Below the pieces are notes generated by a model, which saw nothing but the letters and a program-made list of their open reading frames with translations, ran no database searches and was not told the origin of the DNA. A stretch of DNA of 64,000 nucleotides from positions 1,859-65,858 of the forward strand of contig JAUSFE010000050.1 of assembly GCA_030649945.1 (NCBI GenBank), given 5' to 3'. Below are positions 15,600 through 59,282 of the stretch, one piece after another (position 1 is the stretch's first letter; every line of letters starts with the position of its first letter). This DNA is from Dehalococcoidia bacterium. Its GTDB lineage: Bacteria > Chloroflexota > Dehalococcoidia > SM23-28-2 > RBG-16-64-32. Made by a program: the position numbers and the translations under genes.

Positions 15600-16000
15600 T
15601 CCGGCAAGACGGCACCTTGAAGGGTGTGGCATCAGGAGGCTATCGCTGCCGCAGCCTTCAGGCTGCGGTCTAAGTGTAGTGTCTCAAGAACAGCCTTACC
15701 ACGGCGCACCCTTGAAGTGAGAGACGGTACACGAGGGGTTCGGGCGCGCCATCGTCCCTCGCTCGCAGGTCTGCCCCACCCCAGATCCCTTCGCGAAGCT
15801 GCGCAGAGCCACGTGGCAGATGTCGTCTCGCTCAGGATGACGGACGGGATGGCGCCGCGCCTGCCTACCGCAGGCAGGCTCAACGTACCACGGGATACAG
15901 TCAAGGTATTTTGGAGACGGTACAATAGTAAGACCACACCCTTCAGGGTGTGGCATCAGGGGGCTATCGCCGCCGTCGGCTTCAGGCTGCGGTCAACTAC
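15600..16000. repeat. two direct copies (about 15617-15680 and about 15940-16000) of a roughly 60-bp element with two perfect hairpins (CACACCC-TTCA-GGGTGTG; GCAGCC-TTCA-GGCTGC), plus a copy of dispersed family R4 (CCCCAGATCCCTTCGCGAAGCT)
   Basis: Seen in the sequence. Region is non-coding and lies between rpmH and the ileS leader promoter. Confidence 0.5.
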
Positions 16001-51767: not shown

Positions 51768-53636
51768 TTAGGGCGCGGCCACGCTGTCGGGGGCGGGGAA
51801 GTCCGGGTCCGCGAAGAGCGTGAAGGCGCTGTCTGCGTAGACCTCCCGGAAGCCGAGGACGGTGCGGATGTAGCCGTCCAGCCGCTTCAGCTCCTCGCCG
51901 CCCACCAGCCAGCCGTGCGGCGTCACGTAGTGCAGGGCCACGTACTTGATGCGGTACTTGAGGAACGTCTCCTGCACAAGCGCGGCGTTCAGGTCGTCGG
52001 CGTCCGGGCGGGCGGGGCAGAGGGCCGGGCAAGCCAGGTACTTGATCCCCGGCGGCGTGTCCACCCAGAAGAGCGTCTCGTTGGGCGCGCGGGAGATGTA
52101 TCCGCCCAGGGAGGGCTTCTGGTAGATGCGCTGATAGTAGTCGGCCATGATGGCGCCCGCCTGCGTGCCGCCCAGCGTCCAGGTAGAGCGGCCGAGGGGA
52201 GCGTCCAGGACGGCGAAATCACCCGCTTCGCGGCTGATGGCGACGAGCGCCGCCGGCGTTTCCAGCCTGGCGGTCACCTGGGGTGGGTTCCAGTACTCCA
52301 CGGCGACAAACGCGAAAAGGAGGACAGCCGCCAGGGGCACGAGCTTCAGGTAGTGTCCTCGCAGCCACGAGAGGATGGCGGCGGCGCCCATGGCCGCCAG
52401 TATGCTGAGGGCCAGGTACCCGAAGACAATCAGGCGGGCGATGCCCCGGCGCTCCTTGATCAGCGGTATCTTCTCGTATAGCTGGTAGGGCATGGGGACG
52501 GTGAAGTGGAGGCCCAGGAGTGAGAAATCCTTGTTGTCGCCCAGGTAGAGGTGCGGGCCCATGGCCAGGGAGACGAAGAACAGGAGGACGGCGGCCCAGA
52601 ACACCTGGACGTGCGAGAGGCGACGCACCTGGGCCAGCGCCACCGCGGCCAGGAGGAGCGGCGTAATCCCCAGGTAGACGGTGTTCTCGATGTCGCCGGT
52701 GGGGAAGTGCTGCAAGGAGCCGAGGTCCCACGTGGGCACCTTCCCGGGGCCCCAGAGGGGGCTGGGCGTGAAGAGGGCGCCCAGGTCGCTGGACATGGAC
52801 TCCGAGGCCACGGGCATGCTCACCTCATTGCGGCGGATGCTGATGAGGGCGGGCACGAGGAGCGGCCCGCCGACCACGAAGAGCGCCGCGACGGCGATGG
52901 GCACCACGCGCCAGAGCGGGAGCAGGCGCGGCCACTCGCGGGCCCTGGCGTAGACGAGCGACCAGTAGAGGAGGAAGAGACCCAGGAACATCCCGGCGTC
53001 CACGGCGTATTCCAGGTTGGTGTAGGCGATGATGGCCCAGGCGGCGCCGGCGGCGGCGGCGTCCCACCAGCGGCCGCGCTCCTGGAAGCGGAAGAGGAAG
53101 AGGGCGAACACCGGCAGCGGCCACACGGTGGCGATGTTCCAGTGGCCGTGGAAGCGCATGACGACGAAGGGGGCGAAGGCGAAGATGAAGCCCGCGATGA
53201 GCGAGGCGGCATCGTTCTTCGTGAAGCGGTACGCCAGGGCGTAGGTGGCCACCCCGGAAGCGGCGAAGAGCAGCAGGCCCAGGATGTTCCAGGAAAGGAT
53301 GATGTTGCCGGTGAGCAGTTGCAGGGGGATGGAGAGGACGGCGTCCACCGTGTTCAGCGTGTGCAGGTAGAGATCGGCGCCCTGGGGGTAGAAGAGCAGG
53401 TCCGTGTGGAAGGGGTTGGAGAAGCTGAAGAGGGCGTGCTTCACCCACCAGAGGTTCCAGAGGTTCATCCAGGAGTCCTCCGGGCGCACGGGCCAGTAGC
53501 TCAGGCTGTTTCCGGCGTGCAGGACCAGTGGCCACGTCTGAATGACGGCCCAGAGCAGGAAGAAGGCGGCGACCAGGACCCAGCGCAGAAGCTGAGCGGG
53601 CGGCGCCGGCAGCCGTTGCGGCAGACGCGCGATCAT
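51768..53636 (-). CDS. large polytopic membrane protein, GT-C-type glycosyltransferase-like (YfhO/ArnT-like)
   Basis: 622 aa, at least 12 predicted TM helices in the N-terminal two thirds plus a C-terminal soluble domain; exact family not assignable. Confidence 0.6.
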   Translation of the reverse strand: MIARLPQRLPAPPAQLLRWVLVAAFFLLWAVIQTWPLVLHAGNSLSYWPVRPEDSWMNLWNLWWVKHALFSFSNPFHTDLLFYPQGADLYLHTLNTVDAVLSIPLQLLTGNIILSWNILGLLLFAASGVATYALAYRFTKNDAASLIAGFIFAFAPFVVMRFHGHWNIATVWPLPVFALFLFRFQERGRWWDAAAAGAAWAIIAYTNLEYAVDAGMFLGLFLLYWSLVYARAREWPRLLPLWRVVPIAVAALFVVGGPLLVPALISIRRNEVSMPVASESMSSDLGALFTPSPLWGPGKVPTWDLGSLQHFPTGDIENTVYLGITPLLLAAVALAQVRRLSHVQVFWAAVLLFFVSLAMGPHLYLGDNKDFSLLGLHFTVPMPYQLYEKIPLIKERRGIARLIVFGYLALSILAAMGAAAILSWLRGHYLKLVPLAAVLLFAFVAVEYWNPPQVTARLETPAALVAISREAGDFAVLDAPLGRSTWTLGGTQAGAIMADYYQRIYQKPSLGGYISRAPNETLFWVDTPPGIKYLACPALCPARPDADDLNAALVQETFLKYRIKYVALHYVTPHGWLVGGEELKRLDGYIRTVLGFREVYADSAFTLFADPDFPAPDSVAAP

Positions 53637-53804
53637 TCGTCAGTTGGCCTGGTGCTCAGATTCCGGGCGGGCGCCATGGGTTCTCCCGATAATACACTCC
53701 GGGTCCGGCGAAGCGCCACGGCGTGTGCGCAGGGCCCGGTCGCCCTTGTCAGGGTACGCACGCTGACGTAAGTTAGACGTGTCCCCAGATATAAGGAGCG
53801 GTAG

Positions 53805-54236
53805 ATGCCGAAGGAAGTTACGTTCGAAAAGGCACTGGAACGGGCCAGGCGCATGTCCGAGCGCTACGTGGAGAAGGGCGCCTACGAGTTCTTCCCGCTG
53901 CCCGATATCGTGGATGAGGTCCAGCGCGGCCTGGCCAAGAACCTGGTGACGCACGGGCACCTGTATTGCCCCTGAATGACGCTCTCCGGCGATCCTGATG
54001 AGGATCGCAAGAAGATCTGCCCGTGTGAGCGGCACCACGAAGACATTGCGCGGGACGGGTTCTGCATCTGAATGTTCTTCGTGAGCGAAGAGTATCTTCG
54101 CCGGTACCAGGAGACGGGGGACGTGGGCGCCAGCACGCTGGGCGAGGTGACCCCGCTGGGGGAATCGCTCTTCCCGGCGGAGAAGGACGCGGAGCACCTG
54201 CCGAAGTCCCAGCGCGGGCCCAGAGCCCGGGCGTAG
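53805..54236 (+). CDS. candidate selenoprotein: ferredoxin-thioredoxin reductase catalytic-subunit (FtrC)-like protein with two in-frame UGA (Sec) codons at 53973-53975 and 54069-54071
   Basis: RBS AAGGAG 6 nt upstream of the ATG. Read-through translation: MPKEVTFEKALERARRMSERYVEKGAYEFFPLPDIVDEVQRGLAKNLVTHGHLYCP-U-MTLSGDPDEDRKKICPCERHHEDIARDGFCI-U-MFFVSEEY...RA. This reproduces the FtrC CPC...CPC...CHC-MLF motif with U at the two redox-active Cys positions. Hairpins GCGATCCT-GAUG-AGGATCGC (13 nt after UGA1) and CGAAGA-GUA-UCUUCG (15 nt after UGA2). Absent from the ORF track because the UGAs split it into pieces of less than 60 aa. Confidence 0.5.
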
Positions 54237-54710
54237 AGACGCCCCGGCGGGGCGTCTCAGGCGCTCGTAGTGGGTACGCCGCGCTGTCTGCCCTGCGCCC
54301 CGACCACCTGGCTTCACCTCCCCACCGCCCCAGATTCCTTCGCGAAGCTACGTGTCAGCCGCGCTCAGGCGCCATCTCGCTCAGAATGACAGGGTGCGTT
54401 CGCACGGCGCTCATTACCCGCGCAGCAGCGGTGGTAGAGACGCCCCGCCGGGGCGTCTCAGGCGCTCGTCGTGGGTACGGCGCGCCGTCTGCCCTGCGCC
54501 ACGGCCGCCTGGCTTCACCTCCCCACCGCCCCAGATTCCCCTTCGGCTGCGCTCAGGGCAGGCTTCGCGAAGATGCGCCTTCGCTCCGAAGGATGTCGAT
54601 ACCGCTCAGAATGACAGATCGTGCGTCGCGGCGCCGCCGCCGGGTGCGGTGAGGCCGGCGCTCAGAACGACGAAGGCCGCCGGGAGGGCGGCCTTCGCCC
54701 GGTTGTCAGC
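54237..54710. repeat. about 200-bp tandem duplication (units starting near 54233 and 54432) carrying the perfect hairpin GAGACGCCCCGGCGGGGCGTCTC and R4 motifs. The second unit has a nested R5 insertion (CTTCGGCTGCGCTCAGGGCAGG). Ends with the terminator hairpin AAGGCCGCC-GGGAG-GGCGGCCTT
   Basis: Direct repeats seen in the sequence, between the convergent FtrC-like and desulforedoxin genes. Confidence 0.7.
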
Positions 54711-54854
54711 CTAGTCCGCCGACGGCAGGACTTTGGGCTGCATGAGATCCATGGCCTTGCCGCAGCACTCCACGCCGCCGTCCCCGGCCTTGATGCACAG
54801 CACCTCGGAACCGCAGGTCTCGCACTGGAACCGTTTGCCTAGCTGATTGGGCAC
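54711..54854 (-). CDS. desulforedoxin-like small Fe(Cys)4 protein (47 aa), copy 1
   Basis: Not in the ORF track (GTG start, under 60 aa). Translation: (M)PNQLGKRFQCETCGSEVLCIKAGDGGVECCGKAMDLMQPKVLPSAD. The CxxC...CC desulforedoxin signature. RBS GGAGG 6 nt upstream. Confidence 0.6.
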   Translation of the reverse strand: MPNQLGKRFQCETCGSEVLCIKAGDGGVECCGKAMDLMQPKVLPSAD

Positions 54855-54888
54855 AGCCTACCTCCATACTCCACGACGCGCCGGGCGC

Positions 54889-55008
54889 CTATTGCTTCTG
54901 CTGCATGGGCTGGCCGCAGCAGGCCAGCGCGCCTTCACCGCCCTTGGTGACGATCATCTCGGTACCGCACTTCGTGCACTGGTACCTCTTTCCAACCTGG
55001 TTAGCCAC
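54889..55008 (-). CDS. desulforedoxin-like small Fe(Cys)4 protein (39 aa), copy 2
   Basis: (M)ANQVGKRYQCTKCGTEMIVTKGGEGALACCGQPMQQKQ; same CxxC...CC signature; RBS GAGGAG. Confidence 0.6.
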   Translation of the reverse strand: MANQVGKRYQCTKCGTEMIVTKGGEGALACCGQPMQQKQ

Positions 55009-55115
55009 TTCTCCTCACTCTCTCAGACGGTTGTCCGGGGTTGAATCCGGAGTCCAGCGGCGAATATAGCGCAGCGGCCGGTGGAACGTCAACAAACAGG
55101 CGGGGCCGCCGCCGC

Positions 55116-55622
55116 CTACTGGACGGCGATCCGTCCGCCCATAGAGCCGGGGTGGAAGTCGCAGCGGAAGGTGTAGGCGCCGGCGACAAGGGGAGCGAAC
55201 GTCAGCTCTCCCGCGGCGCCACCGCCGATGGTGTCGGGTTCGGTCACCGCGTCGTCCTCTGTCTCGTACCGGCCGTCCGGCCCGGCGAGGCGCAGGTTGT
55301 GCGGCTGGGCGTCGTTGTTTGTGACACGGATCGTCACGGCGGCGCCGGCCGGGACGCGGAGGTTGTTGGGGGCGAACTGGGCGTCCCGGGCGGCCACTGC
55401 CAGCGCGCCGTCCTGGGGCTCGGTGACCGCGGGGGCCAGCGGTTGCACGGGCTCCGGCTGGGGCTGCAACTCGGGGAGCGAGGGCGCGCCGGGCGGGCTG
55501 CCGGTGGGCGCCGTCTCCTCGCCGCCGCCGCAGGCGCCCAGCAGGAGCAGCGCCAAGCCCGAGAGCGTCGTGGCGCAGAGGAAGGAGCGGCGGAGCGGAC
55601 GTGACATCTGCATATTTGACAT
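55116..55622 (-). CDS. type-1 (blue) copper cupredoxin lipoprotein
   Basis: Signal + lipobox LLLGAC. Cupredoxin ligands H...C-x2-H-x2-M (FRCDFHPGSMGG) and upstream H (QPHNLRL). Confidence 0.75.
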   Translation of the reverse strand: MSNMQMSRPLRRSFLCATTLSGLALLLLGACGGGEETAPTGSPPGAPSLPELQPQPEPVQPLAPAVTEPQDGALAVAARDAQFAPNNLRVPAGAAVTIRVTNNDAQPHNLRLAGPDGRYETEDDAVTEPDTIGGGAAGELTFAPLVAGAYTFRCDFHPGSMGGRIAVQ

Positions 55623-55641
55623 GGCGTGGACCCGCCGGGCG

Positions 55642-56784
55642 CTACTTCGCGGTGATGTCACCCTTCATATCAAGCGGGTGGAAGTCGCAGCGGTAGCTGC
55701 CGGCGCCCGCCGGAAGGGTAGTAGTAAGCGTGGCACTGGAACCGGGAGGCACCAAGTCCGGGCTGGAAACAGTGTCATCGTCCGTATCGAACTTGTTGTC
55801 GGGCCCGGCGATGCGCAGGTTATGGGGGGCGTTGCCACCGTTCTTGAGGTTGAAGGTAACGGCCTGGCCGGCCGTCACTTCCAGCGGCGGGTTCTGCTGG
55901 GCCCCGAACTTGAAGAAGTTGTCGCCCATGGTCACGTCCGCCGTGCCGCTGACCTGGACCGGCGGCCCGGGCGTGGCCGCGGGGGCGGCGGCCTTCTGGC
56001 CGCAGGGCGGGGTGCCGATCTCGCCGTTGATCGTCGTGCCGGGCAGCACCGGACCTTTGAAGACCTCCGAGCCCAGCTTATGCGCCGAGGCCGCGGTCCC
56101 CATGGCGCCGCGCTCGACTTCGATCTTGCCGCTACCCTCGCTAACGCTCTTGATGACGACCAGTTCATAGACGCCGTCGACGGGATCGTCGTCGAGCCGC
56201 AGGACGTCTTCCGCCTTGATGCCGTCCACTGAGTCCAGCGCGAGCGTCGTGCCGCCTTTACCGATGTCCGCCTCGAGGCGCTTTGGGGGGGCGAATTCGT
56301 CGTGGTGGGCGGCGCGCTCTACGGCGTGCGCCCAGCCCAGCTCTGACGCCAGCGGGTCATGCGCGCCGTCCAGCATGCGGCCCGTGATGAGGGCGACGAG
56401 CTGCTCGATCTGAAAGTCGTTGAGCGGGCCGTTCTGCGCCTGAGACCACGCCGGCATGACGGTGCCCACGCGGCCGCAGACGATCGTGTCGCGCATGCGG
56501 TTCTGCAGGGCCAGAATCTGGCCGGCGCTGCCCTCGCGGTTGGCGGACAGGTTGAGCGGGACGCCGGGAAGGCCGCCGCGCTCGAGCGGGCCCTGGCCGG
56601 TGAGGCCGTGGCAGGAGCGGCAGTTAAGGGCGAAAAGGGCGCCCCCGCGCTCCGCGTTGACGCGCAGCTGGCGCTCGGTAGCTTCGTCCGCGCGCGCGGA
56701 GTCCCAGAGGAAGTAGAGCAGGGTGCCGACGAGGAACACCATGAGCAGGCCGACCATCACGTTGACCTGCTTGCTGGTGTTCAT
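55642..56784 (-). CDS. membrane-anchored mono-heme cytochrome c fused to a C-terminal cupredoxin domain
   Basis: N-terminal TM. CxxCH (CRSCHG). C-terminal cupredoxin ligands YRCDFHPLDMKG. Confidence 0.75.
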   Translation of the reverse strand: MNTSKQVNVMVGLLMVFLVGTLLYFLWDSARADEATERQLRVNAERGGALFALNCRSCHGLTGQGPLERGGLPGVPLNLSANREGSAGQILALQNRMRDTIVCGRVGTVMPAWSQAQNGPLNDFQIEQLVALITGRMLDGAHDPLASELGWAHAVERAAHHDEFAPPKRLEADIGKGGTTLALDSVDGIKAEDVLRLDDDPVDGVYELVVIKSVSEGSGKIEVERGAMGTAASAHKLGSEVFKGPVLPGTTINGEIGTPPCGQKAAAPAATPGPPVQVSGTADVTMGDNFFKFGAQQNPPLEVTAGQAVTFNLKNGGNAPHNLRIAGPDNKFDTDDDTVSSPDLVPPGSSATLTTTLPAGAGSYRCDFHPLDMKGDITAK

Positions 56785-56805
56785 TCGCTCGTGGTCCCGT
56801 CCTTG

Positions 56806-57480
56806 CTATGCCTTCGGAGGTGTTTCGCTGCCCGGCTCGTGGGCCGCGGCGCGCGACGGGTTGCCCGGCCCGCCGCTGAACTCGTGCTGGCGGCCGGTCT
56901 GGACGACGATGCTCTTGTCATCCTGCACCTGTAAGGGGAATACATCCAGGGACCTGGGCGCGGGCCCGAAGACCAGCACGCCACCCTCCCTGGTGTAGGT
57001 GGAGTTGTGGCAGGGGCAGCGGAACCAACCCTTGCGCCCCTGGAACTCGAAGCCCGGATTCCAGGGCACGGTGCAGCCGAGATGGGGGCATTTCCGCCAG
57101 AGGGCGAGCAGGCCGCCGGGGGTCTCCTCGCCGTTGGGCGTCGTGCCGGGCTTGAGGTTCAGGAGGAAGAAGCGGCCCTCCGGGATGACGACAGGGTCGC
57201 CCTCCGGCGCCGGGATTCTGTCCGGCGTGACGGGGATGGGGCCGCCGAAACCGGCGAGCTTGCGCGGCCACATGAAGTCCAGGGACGGCCCCGCAAGCCC
57301 TACGATGGCGAGCATGAGGCCGCTCCAGAACCCGCCCAGGATGAAGACGCGCCGCGTGACCAGGCCGCGCCTGGGAACGGGCTTCGCGACCGGGGTATCG
57401 ACAACCAGCGAGCCGCCGGCGATCGCGGGGGCGGCGGGTTCCCGCGGCATGGCGCCTGCGCTCTGGCTTTCAGCTTCCAA
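56806..57480 (-). CDS. Rieske [2Fe-2S] iron-sulfur subunit of a cytochrome bc-type complex
   Basis: Rieske boxes CPHLGC and CPCHNS with N-terminal TM anchor. Confidence 0.85.
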   Translation of the reverse strand: MEAESQSAGAMPREPAAPAIAGGSLVVDTPVAKPVPRRGLVTRRVFILGGFWSGLMLAIVGLAGPSLDFMWPRKLAGFGGPIPVTPDRIPAPEGDPVVIPEGRFFLLNLKPGTTPNGEETPGGLLALWRKCPHLGCTVPWNPGFEFQGRKGWFRCPCHNSTYTREGGVLVFGPAPRSLDVFPLQVQDDKSIVVQTGRQHEFSGGPGNPSRAAAHEPGSETPPKA

Positions 57481-57503
57481 TAGTAGTCACCTCTTGCAGG
57501 CCG

Positions 57504-58487
57504 TCAGCCCTCGTCCACCTTGATGTCCCAGGGCGGGATCAGCGCCTGCGCCTGCCCGCGGAAGAAGCTGCCGATCATGGACAGGGTGAGATAGGAGGCC
57601 ATGACGGCGGTGAACATGATGAGGAACACGTCGCGCCTGGTCCTCACCCAGCCCAGGCGGAAGAGCACGTAGATGATGAGCACCGCCAGGAAGGCGATGG
57701 TCGAGAGCGGGATCACCTGGTCCGACATGATGACGGGAATGTTCAGGTGCATGTCGCACCATAAATGAAAGCTGCCGATGTTCCCGCAGACGTTGTTAAG
57801 GGGTACCGGGATGTGATCCAGGTCGCCAGGCCAGTCCAGGTTCTTGTCGTGGATGCCCCAGATGTTCGGGAAGGGGACGCTGAACTGCAGGCGCTTGGAG
57901 ACATCCTTGACGGAGATGATGCCCTCGTGCTTGGTCGGGTCAGCGTCGCGCAGGCAGGGCGACCCCTGGTGCGCCGCCTGGGTATCGCAGGAGGGGATCC
58001 AGCGGGTCAGGCTCTCGGTGTGCGTGCGGTCGCCGGCGTCGAAGATGACCAGCCCGGCGCTGACGACGACGGCGTAGACGGCAGCGATAACCGTGAGGCG
58101 CACGGCGTACTTCGTGCCGAACCAGACGCCCTGGGCCTGGCGGCTGCGGTCCAGATAGGGGATGACGGCGAAGAACGCGAGGGCGACGGTGGGCAGGAGG
58201 ACGCCGGCCCAGGACTTATCCATGTGCAGGAGCAGCTCCTGGAGGTTCAAGAAGTACCAGGGCGCCTTGGAAGGGTTGGGAGTGACGTCCTGGTTGGCGT
58301 GATTGAGCAGCGGGGCGTTGATGAAGACGGAGAGGAGGAGGAAGGTGATGGTGAAGAGGACGGCGGCGACGAACTCTATGAAAACGAGGTCAGGCCAGAC
58401 CAGGACCTCTTCCTCACGCTCCCGCTTCGGCCGGGGCCGCGCCGGCTCCGCCGGCCGGGCGGCTGGTCTCTGCGCCTCTACAGCCAT
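57504..58487 (-). CDS. cytochrome b C-terminal-domain protein (subunit IV-like) of a split cytochrome b
   Basis: PNPSKAPWYFLNLQELLLH corresponds to the PEWY region; multiple TM helices. Confidence 0.8.
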   Translation of the reverse strand: MAVEAQRPAARPAEPARPRPKREREEEVLVWPDLVFIEFVAAVLFTITFLLLSVFINAPLLNHANQDVTPNPSKAPWYFLNLQELLLHMDKSWAGVLLPTVALAFFAVIPYLDRSRQAQGVWFGTKYAVRLTVIAAVYAVVVSAGLVIFDAGDRTHTESLTRWIPSCDTQAAHQGSPCLRDADPTKHEGIISVKDVSKRLQFSVPFPNIWGIHDKNLDWPGDLDHIPVPLNNVCGNIGSFHLWCDMHLNIPVIMSDQVIPLSTIAFLAVLIIYVLFRLGWVRTRRDVFLIMFTAVMASYLTLSMIGSFFRGQAQALIPPWDIKVDEG

Positions 58488-58502
58488 GGCGGGTGCGGCC
58501 TG

Positions 58503-59282
58503 TTACAGCGGCCTCGCCATGCCGCCGTCGCGCCGGATGCGCCAGAAGTGCACGGCCATGAAGATGGCCGCCAGGAGCGGCAGCGCGATCACGTGCAGCG
58601 TGTAGAAGCGGAGCAGGGTGCTGGGGCCGATCTCAAAGCCGCCGAAGACGATGAGCTGCGTCTCGTCGCCGAAGTAGGGAGCGGAGCCGGCGATGCCGAG
58701 GCCGATCGTGGCCGCCCACAGTGCCAGCTGGTCCCAGGGCAGCAGGTAGCCGGTGAAGCTGAGCACCAGCGTCAGCACGAGCAGGATGACGCCGACCACC
58801 CAGTTGAACTCCCGCGGCGGCTTGTAGGCGCCGGTGTAGAACACGCGCATCATGTGCAGGAAGACCAGGATGACCATGGCATGGGCCGTCCAGCGGTGCA
58901 TGTTGCGCATGAGCAGCCCGAATTTGACGTTCGTCTCCAGCTCGGCGATGTCCTGGTACGCCCTCTCCACAGAGGGTACGTAGTAGAACATGAGGAGGAC
59001 GCCCGTGACGGTGAGGATGAGGAACATGAAGAAGGTGAGGCCGCCCAGGCAGTAGGTGTGCGTGACCTTGACGTGGGTGCGGTGCAGGCGCGTGGGGTGG
59101 AGGTGGAGGAAGACGTTGGTGGCCACCACCAGCATCTGGTTGCGCGGGGTGTTGGGATAGCCGGAGCGGAAGATGGACTGCCAAACATAGTTGTGGAAGA
59201 TCTTATCGTAGATGCGGTCCTGGAGGACGCCGATGCGCTCCGACCAGTTGCGTGGTTTTCCCGGATCTTCCGTCACCGCCAT
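58503..59282 (-). CDS. cytochrome b6-like (cytochrome b N-terminal domain) subunit
   Basis: Four-helix heme-binding core with conserved His pairs (MRNMHRWTAHAMV...FLHMMRVF; VIALPLLAAIFMAVHFWRIR). Confidence 0.85.
   Translation of the reverse strand: MAVTEDPGKPRNWSERIGVLQDRIYDKIFHNYVWQSIFRSGYPNTPRNQMLVVATNVFLHLHPTRLHRTHVKVTHTYCLGGLTFFMFLILTVTGVLLMFYYVPSVERAYQDIAELETNVKFGLLMRNMHRWTAHAMVILVFLHMMRVFYTGAYKPPREFNWVVGVILLVLTLVLSFTGYLLPWDQLALWAATIGLGIAGSAPYFGDETQLIVFGGFEIGPSTLLRFYTLHVIALPLLAAIFMAVHFWRIRRDGGMARPL

What the first reader, a model, noticed from the sequence alone, without database searches (positions are those of the whole stretch)
54711..55008. Two tandem, unannotated desulforedoxin-like genes convergent with the candidate selenoprotein
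Manual translation of the minus strand reveals two genes of about 40 aa with GTG starts and SD sequences. Both have the CxxC...CC desulforedoxin signature (QCETCGSEV...VECCGKAM and QCTKCGTEM...LACCGQPM).

Together with the FtrC-like gene this forms a compact thiol/selenol-iron redox module. The genes are missed by any ORF caller that requires ATG starts or a 60 aa minimum.
Basis: partly seen in the sequence, partly recalled or inferred. Interest (0 to 1): 0.5.

Follow-up and report, generated by a model that had tools for sequence, protein, structure and literature searches.

The report
Paired desulforedoxin-like small genes
Two tiny genes for desulforedoxin-type four-cysteine proteins are real and always occur as a pair in hundreds of uncultured Chloroflexota genomes. 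They are an independent unit, not a dedicated partner of the neighbouring selenoprotein, and they belong to a wider, uncharacterised two-domain protein family.

Summary
Gene A (55008..54889, 39 aa, GTG) and gene B (54854..54711, 47 aa, GTG) lie on the minus strand. Both carry C-x2-C-x15-CC and pass Pfam's Desulfoferrod_N threshold (39.4 and 25.9 bits; cut-off 23).

Both are real genes:
- pN/pS is about 0.2 in the proposed frames only.
- A precedes B in every related locus with enough upstream sequence (88 of 91).
- They are typically 8-20 nt apart, each with a Shine-Dalgarno site.
- A TTGAC-17/18-TAnnnT promoter lies about 50 nt upstream in 70 of 75 loci.

All close relatives are uncultured Chloroflexota/Dehalococcoidia.

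The "redox module with FtrC" reading is weak. The FtrB double-selenoprotein, a known NCBIfam family, is the convergent neighbour in only 16 of 63 species-level loci. A cytochrome bc-type operon lies upstream in 45 of 59.

Profile searches show A and B are the split, eight-cysteine form of a widespread, unnamed family of about 100 aa. It has two desulforedoxin-like domains and a near-invariant C-terminal ...LPS(A/S)D tail. Most members have lost metal ligands. In Rhodococcus, Mycobacterium, Streptomyces and sphingomonads they sit beside adenylate-forming enzymes.

Most likely A and B form a metal-stabilised heterodimer that docks a partner through B's tail. The function is untested.

The parts
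54889..55008 (-). Gene A: 39-aa desulforedoxin-like protein, GTG start, Cys11/14/30/31
   Evidence: ORF. PF06397 39.4 bits, cut-off 23. Hits Dfx 1dfx at 5e-5 and Dx 1cfw at 4e-4 with the Cys aligned. pN/pS 0.23. 82 close homologues.
54711..54854 (-). Gene B: 47-aa desulforedoxin-like protein, GTG start, ligand Cys11/14/30/31, an extra invariant Cys20, and an invariant C-terminal tail QPKVLPSAD
   Evidence: ORF. PF06397 25.9 bits. Profile hits Dfx 1vzg at 3e-4. pN/pS 0.20. 88 homologues, nearly all 47 aa; invariant columns listed.
55011..55016 (-). SD-like GAGGAG before gene A, with short spacing in this window
   Evidence: Sequence. Homologous loci carry GGAGG/GGGAG 6-12 nt before the A start.
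54861..54865 (-). SD GGAGG 6 nt before the gene B start, in the 34-nt A-B spacer
   Evidence: Sequence. The A stop to B start gap is 8-20 nt in most of 76 loci, with an SD in the spacer.
55063..55092 (-). Sigma-70-type promoter TTGACG-18 nt-TATATT, 54 nt upstream of the A start
   Evidence: Only promoter-like site in 54200..55300; 0.0 expected in shuffles. An equivalent TTGAC[GTC]-17/18-TA[TG]A[TC]T with at least 9 of 12 matches occurs in 70 of 75 related loci, mostly 41-65 nt upstream of A.
55099..55113 (-). Terminator-like hairpin plus T-run directly after the upstream cupredoxin gene; separates the bc-type operon from the pair
54671..54697 (-). Strong hairpin starting 14 nt after the B stop codon (11 G+C-rich pairs, extendable to 13); likely transcript end, no clear U-tract
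   Evidence: -30.9 kcal/mol, z -3.6, 0 of 200 shuffles as stable.

Best explanation
A and B are two real, co-expressed paralogous genes that form one conserved two-gene unit. They are transcribed from their own strong sigma-70-type promoter and translated from closely spaced SD sites. Each product is a desulforedoxin-fold knuckle with a complete Cys4 site (C-x2-C-x15-CC). Most likely they assemble into an A:B heterodimer equivalent to the desulforedoxin homodimer, with one metal ion (Fe or Zn) per subunit. The invariant parts, which are the GKR[YF] N-terminal motif, B's extra Cys20 and above all B's C-terminal tail ...QPKVLPSAD, would serve to dock a partner protein. The metal sites stabilise the fold and may carry single electrons, but redox chemistry is probably not the core conserved function. 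The unit is not a dedicated component of the neighbouring FtrB selenoprotein, nor is it co-transcribed with the upstream cytochrome bc-type operon. Shown: coding status, pairing, promoter, family membership at domain level, distribution, synteny statistics, and the existence of natural fusions and Cys-less orthologues. Inferred: heterodimer, metal binding, tail-mediated docking. Unknown: the partner.
For: Coding and domain. One domain of the model superposes on 1DXG with target-normalised TM 0.89 and 40% identity. Pairing: A precedes B in all 88 loci with upstream sequence, and the median spacer is about 14 nt. Own transcription unit: terminator-like site, promoter and downstream hairpin in the window, with the promoter conserved in 70 of 75 loci. 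Heterodimer: natural single-chain A-linker-B proteins exist, with all eight Cys (P0322, P0325) or fewer. AlphaFold2 of one fusion gives pLDDT 78 and pTM 0.65, with only the linker disordered. Tail rather than metal is the conserved feature. In the 120 best fused relatives the C-terminal Asp is invariant, and the tails are PLPASD, PLPSSD or VLPSAD in 103 of 120. Only 5 of 120 keep all eight ligand Cys, yet the non-ligand Cys equivalent to B Cys20 is kept in 104 of 120. Fused, Cys-poor proteins with the same ...QPKVLPSAD tail occupy the same genomic slot, after the bc operon and before rpsU/yqeY, in other contigs. Not FtrB-specific: 16 of 63 loci.
Against: No experiment or complex model tests the heterodimer; the fusion argument and pTM 0.65 are indirect. 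Metal binding and metal identity are inferred from sequence only. Both proteins score below NCBIfam's cut-off for TIGR00319 (29.6 and 19.5 against 36.05). All eight ligand Cys are conserved throughout this clade, so in this lineage the metal sites are under selection and a true electron-carrier role remains quite possible. No partner has been identified. The structure searches gave no statistically significant hit.
Confidence: 0.55

Rival explanations
1. One reading: the desulforedoxin pair is the iron-based electron donor of the adjacent FtrB-like double-selenocysteine disulfide reductase, forming one thiol/selenol-iron redox module.
For: FtrB (NF041072, 219 bits, two in-frame TGA codons) lies convergent to B in the window. 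The same convergent arrangement occurs in 16 related species-level loci from at least four sequence clusters, with stop-to-stop distance mostly 16-180 nt. Two of those loci have lost the upstream bc operon. From my own recollection, not confirmed by the literature search: some non-photosynthetic FTR-like reductases carry rubredoxin-type domains.
Against: The arrangement is absent from 47 of 63 loci with enough downstream sequence. Convergent genes are not co-transcribed. In this window a 475-nt spacer holding two repeat copies separates them. The pair keeps its own promoter whatever the neighbour. Cys-less orthologues cannot donate electrons.
Confidence: 0.12
2. The pair is an accessory subunit, assembly factor or cytoplasmic redox partner of the cytochrome b/Rieske/cytochrome c-cupredoxin complex encoded directly upstream.
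For: The bc-type operon ends within 1.8 kb upstream on the same strand in 45 of 59 species-level loci. The same order holds for distant fused, Cys-poor orthologues.
Against: A terminator-like site and a separate conserved promoter lie between the operon and the pair. 14 of 59 loci lack the operon nearby but keep the pair. Relatives in Actinomycetota and sphingomonads sit in CoA-dependent catabolic operons with no bc complex. The equally frequent rpsU/yqeY neighbourhood suggests inherited gene order.
Confidence: 0.13
3. Classical role: free desulforedoxin acting as a one-electron carrier in oxidative-stress defence, for example as donor to a superoxide reductase encoded elsewhere.
For: Complete Dx-type Cys4 sites are invariant in this clade. 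The best solved relatives are Dx and the Dx domain of 2Fe-SOR, and B's tail start (M-x-L-M) aligns with the Dfx interdomain linker.
Against: No SOR domain lies nearby in any of about 100 loci. Orthologues at the same position have lost the ligands. This model does not explain why two different subunits and an invariant tail are needed.
Confidence: 0.12
4. The ORFs are chance open frames in G+C-rich DNA, not genes.
For: Many overlapping spurious ORFs exist in this region on both strands.
Against: Frame-specific purifying selection, conserved starts with SD sites and promoter, hundreds of homologues of constant length, and HMM hits.
Confidence: 0.01

Closest known systems
Desulforedoxin (Dx) of Desulfovibrio gigas (PDB 1DXG/1CFW; Pfam PF06397)
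   Same: Size (A is 39 aa, Dx is 36 aa). Identical C-x2-C-x15-C-C spacing. Sequence match at 4e-4 with all Cys aligned. One modelled domain superposes with target-normalised TM 0.89.
   Different: Dx is a homodimer of one gene product. Here two diverged paralogues (A and B about 46% identical) are always encoded together. B adds a fifth conserved Cys and a nine-residue invariant tail. The hosts are uncultured Chloroflexota, not sulfate reducers. Metal content is unknown.
N-terminal Dx domain of desulfoferrodoxin / 2Fe-superoxide reductase (PDB 1DFX, 1VZG; TIGR00320)
   Same: Best sequence matches for both proteins. B's residues after CCG..M align with the Dfx interdomain linker.
   Different: There is no SOR (centre II) domain. 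Scores are 27-28 bits against a 146.9-bit cut-off, so this is not a desulfoferrodoxin, despite that name on some NCBI MAG homologues.
Unnamed ~100-aa two-domain proteins, e.g. WP_016881672.1 (Rhodococcus sp. DK17 pDK3), WP_121151289.1 (Sphingomonas paeninsulae), OG216_45010 (Streptomycetaceae NBC_01309)
   Same: Homologous over both domains (profile E down to 1e-34). Same order: A-like domain, linker, B-like domain. Same GKRY motif, same conserved Cys in '...VLC(T/I)K', same C-terminal ...LPS(A/S)D.
   Different: They are single chains. Most have lost 4-7 of the 8 ligand Cys. They are encoded immediately next to class I adenylate-forming enzymes and CaiB/BaiF CoA-transferases in catabolic operons. 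All are annotated 'hypothetical protein', with no Pfam or NCBIfam family and no solved structure.
Two-domain rubredoxin AlkG; small partner or carrier proteins such as MbtH-like proteins and LysW (analogies recalled from memory, not tested)
   Same: AlkG shows that tandem Cys4 domains, one of them degenerate, can act as an electron carrier. MbtH-like proteins are small obligate partners of adenylating enzymes. LysW is a Zn-ribbon protein that works through a conserved C-terminal acidic residue.
   Different: No sequence relationship was detected: LysW models match only at E 0.01-0.08, below threshold. There is no rubredoxin CxxC...CxxC pattern. These are leads for how the family might work, not memberships.

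Membership tests
Pfam PF06397 Desulfoferrod_N (desulforedoxin-type domain) | HMM score at or above the gathering threshold (23 bits) | tested here: met
   A 39.4 bits, B 25.9 bits.
Desulforedoxin proper | Four Cys as C-x2-C ... adjacent C-C with 15-residue spacing | tested here: met
   Cys11, 14, 30 and 31 in both proteins. They align to Dx Cys9, 12, 28 and 29. The ligand Cys are invariant in 37 aligned B homologues and conserved in both A and B across 75 paired loci.
Desulforedoxin proper | Dx fold | tested here: inconclusive
Desulforedoxin proper | Homodimer binding one Fe(Cys)4 per chain, with the characteristic optical and EPR spectra | not testable with these tools
   Needs purified protein. 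Two different chains that are always co-encoded, and that are fused in relatives, suggest a heterodimer instead.
NCBIfam TIGR00319 desulf_FeS4 domain | Score at or above 36.05 bits | tested here: not met
   A 29.6 bits, B 19.5 bits.
Desulfoferrodoxin / 2Fe-SOR (TIGR00320) | Dx domain plus C-terminal SOR domain; score at or above 146.9 bits | tested here: not met
   27-28 bits, and only profile positions 6-40 of 125 are matched.
   Adjacent in 16 of 63 loci and always convergent. Genome-wide co-occurrence could not be tested.
Unnamed double-Dx-like family with C-terminal ...LPSxD | A-like domain followed by B-like domain, GKR[YF] motif, conserved Cys in '...VLC(I/T)K', C-terminal [LI]P[ST][SAG]D | tested here: met
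   A and B together reproduce every feature. The B profile retrieves fused members at E 1e-13 to 1e-41; alignments A2 and A3. The family has no curated definition, so this is my own operational one.

The most novel reading that the evidence does not exclude
A and B would be the split, fully metal-liganded form of a widespread and so far unnamed family of about 100 aa: two desulforedoxin-derived domains with an invariant C-terminal ...LPS(A/S)D. Its conserved job would not be electron transfer. It would act as a dedicated small partner of class I adenylate-forming enzymes or CoA-transferases, either as an activator (as MbtH-like proteins are for NRPS adenylation domains) or as a carrier using the conserved domain-2 Cys or the C-terminal Asp. 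In most members the three Cys left in domain 1 plus the conserved domain-2 Cys could form an inter-domain metal site.
Probability: 0.15. Interest if true: 0.7.

Novelty: new variant of a known kind. Interest (0 to 1): 0.38.

Why it matters
As a pair of desulforedoxin-like genes, this is a modest addition: a known domain in a new lineage, with homologues already present in public data under vague or wrong names ('desulfoferrodoxin', 'Elf1', 'S27E').

Three things make it worth recording:
- The obligate A-B pairing suggests a heterodimeric desulforedoxin, which to my knowledge has not been described.
- The pair is the Cys-complete end of a large unnamed family that lost its metal ligands repeatedly but kept a C-terminal tail. 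That gives a natural experiment on what a Dx fold does without iron.
- Cultured, tractable bacteria (Rhodococcus sp. DK17, R. qingshengii, Sphingobium) carry family members next to acyl-CoA ligase-type enzymes, so the function can be tested directly.

It also shows that the attractive link to the neighbouring selenoprotein rests mostly on proximity in a subset of genomes.

Tried and rejected
- Rfam at permissive thresholds found nothing across 53500..55400, so there is no known riboswitch or leader.
- The 5' UTR of the window folds no better than shuffles (z -1.0). Many related loci do start with a stable hairpin (30 of 65 with z below -1.5), but I did not establish covariation and do not claim a regulatory RNA.
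- Literature searches found nothing relevant for desulforedoxin with Chloroflexi, for desulforedoxin-like proteins, or for FTR with rubredoxin.
- My first regular expression missed A in four loci. tblastn showed A is present in all of them.
- I considered and rejected a ribosomal or Zn-ribbon translation factor. The S27e/L37ae matches are only E 0.03-1, and net charge is about +3 for A and -1 for B.
- I considered and rejected a RiPP precursor, because no modifying enzymes are conserved nearby.
- Close A-B 'fusions' on error-prone long-read contigs (P0327, P0329) may be frameshift artefacts. The fusion argument therefore relies on diverged fusions such as P0322, P0325, P0172 and the plasmid genes annotated in RefSeq.

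Full report
**1. Observation**

The minus strand of 54711..55008 holds two ORFs exactly as described.
- Gene A runs 55008..54889, starts with GTG and encodes 39 aa: MANQVGKRYQCTKCGTEMIVTKGGEGALACCGQPMQQKQ.
- Gene B runs 54854..54711, starts with GTG and encodes 47 aa: MPNQLGKRFQCETCGSEVLCIKAGDGGVECCGKAMDLMQPKVLPSAD.
- Both have Cys at positions 11, 14, 30 and 31. This is the C-x2-C-x15-C-C spacing of Desulfovibrio gigas desulforedoxin.
- GAGGAG (55016..55011) precedes A, and GGAGG (54865..54861) precedes B.

**2. Are they genes?**

Domain and structure matches:
- Pfam PF06397 (Desulfoferrod_N) scores 39.4 bits for A and 25.9 bits for B, against a gathering score of 23.
- NCBIfam's stricter TIGR00319 is not reached: 29.6 and 19.5 bits against 36.05.
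- Against solved structures, A matches desulfoferrodoxin 1DFX (5e-5) and Dx 1CFW/1DXG (4e-4). A profile of B matches Dfx 1VZG (3e-4) and Dx (8e-3). All four Cys are aligned in each case.

Homologues and distribution:
- B has 88 close homologues (70-91% identity), nearly all exactly 47 aa. A has 82.
- A scan of one genome per species found relatives in 381 stretches. The best 80 are nearly all labelled as uncultured Chloroflexota/Dehalococcoidia MAGs.

Selection and starts:
- In 76 distinct loci, pN/pS is 0.23 for A and 0.20 for B in the proposed frames. It is 0.36-3.1 in the other five frames.
- Third-codon-position entropy is three times that of positions 1 and 2.
- Start positions are conserved. 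A starts with GTG in 50, TTG in 24 and ATG in 2 loci. B starts with ATG in 54, GTG in 20 and TTG in 2. Each has an SD site.

Both are therefore real protein-coding genes.

**3. Anatomy of the unit**

- A precedes B in every locus that has at least about 150 nt upstream of B, which is 88 of 91. The other three begin inside or just before B.
- The A stop to B start gap is 8-20 nt in most loci and 34 nt in this window. This points to coupled expression.
- Upstream, the cupredoxin gene (55116..55661) is followed by a terminator-like hairpin with a T-run (55113..55099).
- Next comes the only promoter-like site in the region, TTGACG-18-TATATT (55092..55063). Shuffles give 0.0 expected.
- An equivalent TTGAC[GTC]-17/18-TA[TG]A[TC]T with at least 9 of 12 matches, mostly 41-65 nt upstream of A, is present in 70 of 75 related loci. 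This holds even though the surrounding sequence is not alignable and the genomes are G+C-rich.
- A G+C-rich hairpin (11 pairs, extendable to 13; 54697..54671, -30.9 kcal/mol, z -3.6) starts 14 nt after the B stop codon.

The pair thus looks like an independent, probably well expressed, transcription unit.

**4. Neighbourhood and the 'module' idea**

Window gene order:
- PurM and PurH.
- Split cytochrome b (N and C parts), a Rieske protein, a cytochrome c-cupredoxin fusion and a second cupredoxin, all on the minus strand.
- A and B.
- Convergent to them, an FtrB-like gene (53805..54236), then a large membrane protein and TsaD.

The FtrB-like gene has two in-frame TGA codons, at 53973 and 54069. 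It matches NCBIfam NF041072 'FtrB family double-selenoprotein' at 219 bits against a cut-off of 160. That family is already curated.

Synteny among species-level loci with enough flanking sequence:

| Neighbour | Position | Loci |
|---|---|---|
| bc-type operon | directly upstream, same strand | 45 of 59 |
| FtrB | convergent downstream | 16 of 63 |
| yqeY | downstream, same strand | 29 of 52 |

- The FtrB adjacency falls in at least four sequence clusters. It persists in two loci that lack the bc operon, so a loose association is not excluded.
- It is absent from three quarters of the loci. The pair is equally intact next to quite different genes.
- In this window the 475-nt spacer between B and FtrB holds two copies of a ~111-nt repeat (extendable to about 165-190 nt).

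The 'compact redox module' is therefore not supported as a conserved unit.

**5. A wider family**

- A profile of B searched against 1.84 billion representative proteins gave 770 hits at E of 1e-3 or better. Many are 80-120 aa with two matched stretches: an A-like domain, a linker and a B-like domain.
- A profile of such fusions retrieved 885 proteins.
- In the best 120, the C-terminal Asp is invariant. The last six residues are PLPASD (54), PLPSSD (33) or VLPSAD (16).
- The GKRY motif of the second domain is nearly invariant.
- The ligand Cys are mostly gone. Only 5 of 120 keep all eight. The commonest pattern keeps three in domain 1 and none in domain 2.
- The non-ligand Cys that corresponds to B Cys20 is kept in 104 of 120.
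- These proteins match no Pfam family beyond partial PF06397 hits, no NCBIfam family and no solved structure. They carry no informative name.

**6. Contexts of the wider family**

- Fused, Cys-poor members ending in the same ...QPKVLPSAD (P0335, P0343) occupy the same slot as A-B. They sit directly after a cytochrome b/Rieske/cytochrome c operon and before rpsU/yqeY/7TM-HD. At an orthologous position the metal ligands are therefore dispensable, while the tail is not.
- Other members lie in CoA-dependent catabolic clusters.
- tblastn against plasmids found 19 records: Rhodococcus 12, Streptomyces 3, Sphingobium 2, Sphingomonas 1 and Mycobacterium 1. All annotated hits are 'hypothetical protein'.
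- In 7 of the 8 records I inspected, the gene is immediately adjacent, on the same strand, to a class I adenylate-forming enzyme or fatty-acid-CoA ligase.
- Flanking genes often include CaiB/BaiF CoA-transferases, acyl-CoA dehydrogenases and enoyl-CoA hydratases. Metagenomic contigs show the same picture.
- No such enzyme flanks the Chloroflexota pair.

**7. Structure**

- AlphaFold2 of a natural A-B fusion (P0171, with a 120-sequence alignment) gives mean pLDDT 78.4 and pTM 0.65.
- The model has four short strands per domain, a disordered linker (residues 41-47) and a less confident tail.
- Coordinates are not returned, so I could not compare the relative domain arrangement with the Dx dimer.

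**8. Interpretation**

Shown:
- Two real, always-paired, separately promoted genes for Dx-type Cys4 domains, restricted to uncultured Chloroflexota.
- They are homologous to the two halves of a widespread unnamed two-domain family, whose constant features are the fold, the GKRY motif, one domain-2 Cys and the C-terminal tail.

Inferred:
- A and B form a heterodimer, from obligate pairing, tight translational spacing and natural fusions.
- Each binds a metal, from the complete Dx ligand set being conserved in this clade.
- B's tail is a docking element, because it is the best conserved feature across the family, including members with no metal site.

Unknown:
- The partner is not identified.
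- In this clade the metal centres might additionally carry electrons.

Rivals that remain minority possibilities are an electron donor to FtrB, an accessory of the bc-type complex, and a classical oxidative-stress desulforedoxin.

**9. Novelty and score**

- The domain is known, and homologues are already in public databases, sometimes misnamed: 'desulfoferrodoxin', 'transcription elongation factor Elf1', 'ribosomal protein S27E'.
- Three points appear to be new: the obligate heteropair, the invariant tail, and the link to a large Cys-degenerate family beside adenylate-forming enzymes.
- I found no literature on any of these.
- I rate it a new variant of a known kind, of moderate interest. The finding as written is sound but ordinary. 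The family-level lead is the more interesting part, and it can be tested in cultured Rhodococcus or Sphingobium.

Noticed in passing
window 54228-54617 (copies at 54228-54338 and 54429-54539; related short repeats to 54617; weak third match at 15829-15843): The spacer between the FtrB gene and gene B holds two direct copies (92% identical over 111 nt, extendable to about 165-190 nt) of a repeat. The repeat contains the palindrome GAGACGCCCCGGCGGGGCGTCTC and ends in CGCTCAGAATGACAG. It looks like a small interspersed (MITE/REP-like) element and it generates spurious ORFs on both strands.
   Followed up: partly
window 53805-54236 (+): An FtrB/FTR-catalytic-subunit-like gene with two in-frame TGA codons (53973-53975, 54069-54071), at the positions of the CPC and CHC redox Cys. 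With the TGA codons read as Cys it matches NCBIfam NF041072 'FtrB family double-selenoprotein' at 219 bits (cut-off 160). It is therefore a member of an already curated selenoprotein family, not a new one.
   Followed up: partly
window 55116-59282 (-): An operon for an unusual bc-type complex: cytochrome b split into N (58503-59282) and C (57504-58487) parts, a Rieske protein (56806-57480), a cytochrome c fused to a cupredoxin domain (55642-56784), and a second cupredoxin (55116-55661). The order is conserved in most related Dehalococcoidia loci. In more distant relatives the cytochrome c subunit carries LysM hits instead.
   Followed up: partly
related loci L012-L091, about 5-45 nt downstream of the conserved -10 element: In many loci the predicted 5' UTR of the A-B transcript begins with a stable G+C-rich hairpin of differing sequence (e.g. 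GCAGGACGCG...CGCGTCCTGC, GGGACGGGCC...GCGCGTCCC). 30 of 65 have z below -1.5 against shuffles. The window's own UTR is not significantly structured (z -1.0). This could be an mRNA-stabilising 5' stem-loop or an operator; covariation was not tested.
   Followed up: partly
L105 6998-7303 (Rhodococcus sp. DK17 pDK3, PST05_RS39500); L106, L107, L108, L110, L111, L112: The Cys-poor ~100-aa relatives of A+B are encoded immediately beside class I adenylate-forming enzymes / fatty-acid-CoA ligases (7 of 8 plasmid loci inspected). CaiB/BaiF CoA-transferases and beta-oxidation-type genes often flank them. This suggests an unrecognised small partner protein of these enzymes.
   Followed up: partly
public homologues P0011, P0015, P0047, P0081 (B type), P0182 (fused), P0103, P0104, P0112, P0165 (A type): Source annotations are inconsistent and partly wrong. 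B-type proteins are named 'transcription elongation factor Elf1'. A fused one is named 'ribosomal protein S27E'. A-type 39-aa proteins are named 'desulfoferrodoxin' although they lack the SOR domain.
   Followed up: no
L104 (ERZ25039602 contig_24209) and proteins P0327, P0329: Some apparent A-B fusions at 70-75% identity to the pair lie on contigs whose neighbouring genes are fragmented (cytochrome b, TPP enzyme and LeuA pieces). Those particular fusions may be frameshift artefacts of long-read assemblies rather than natural fusions.
   Followed up: no
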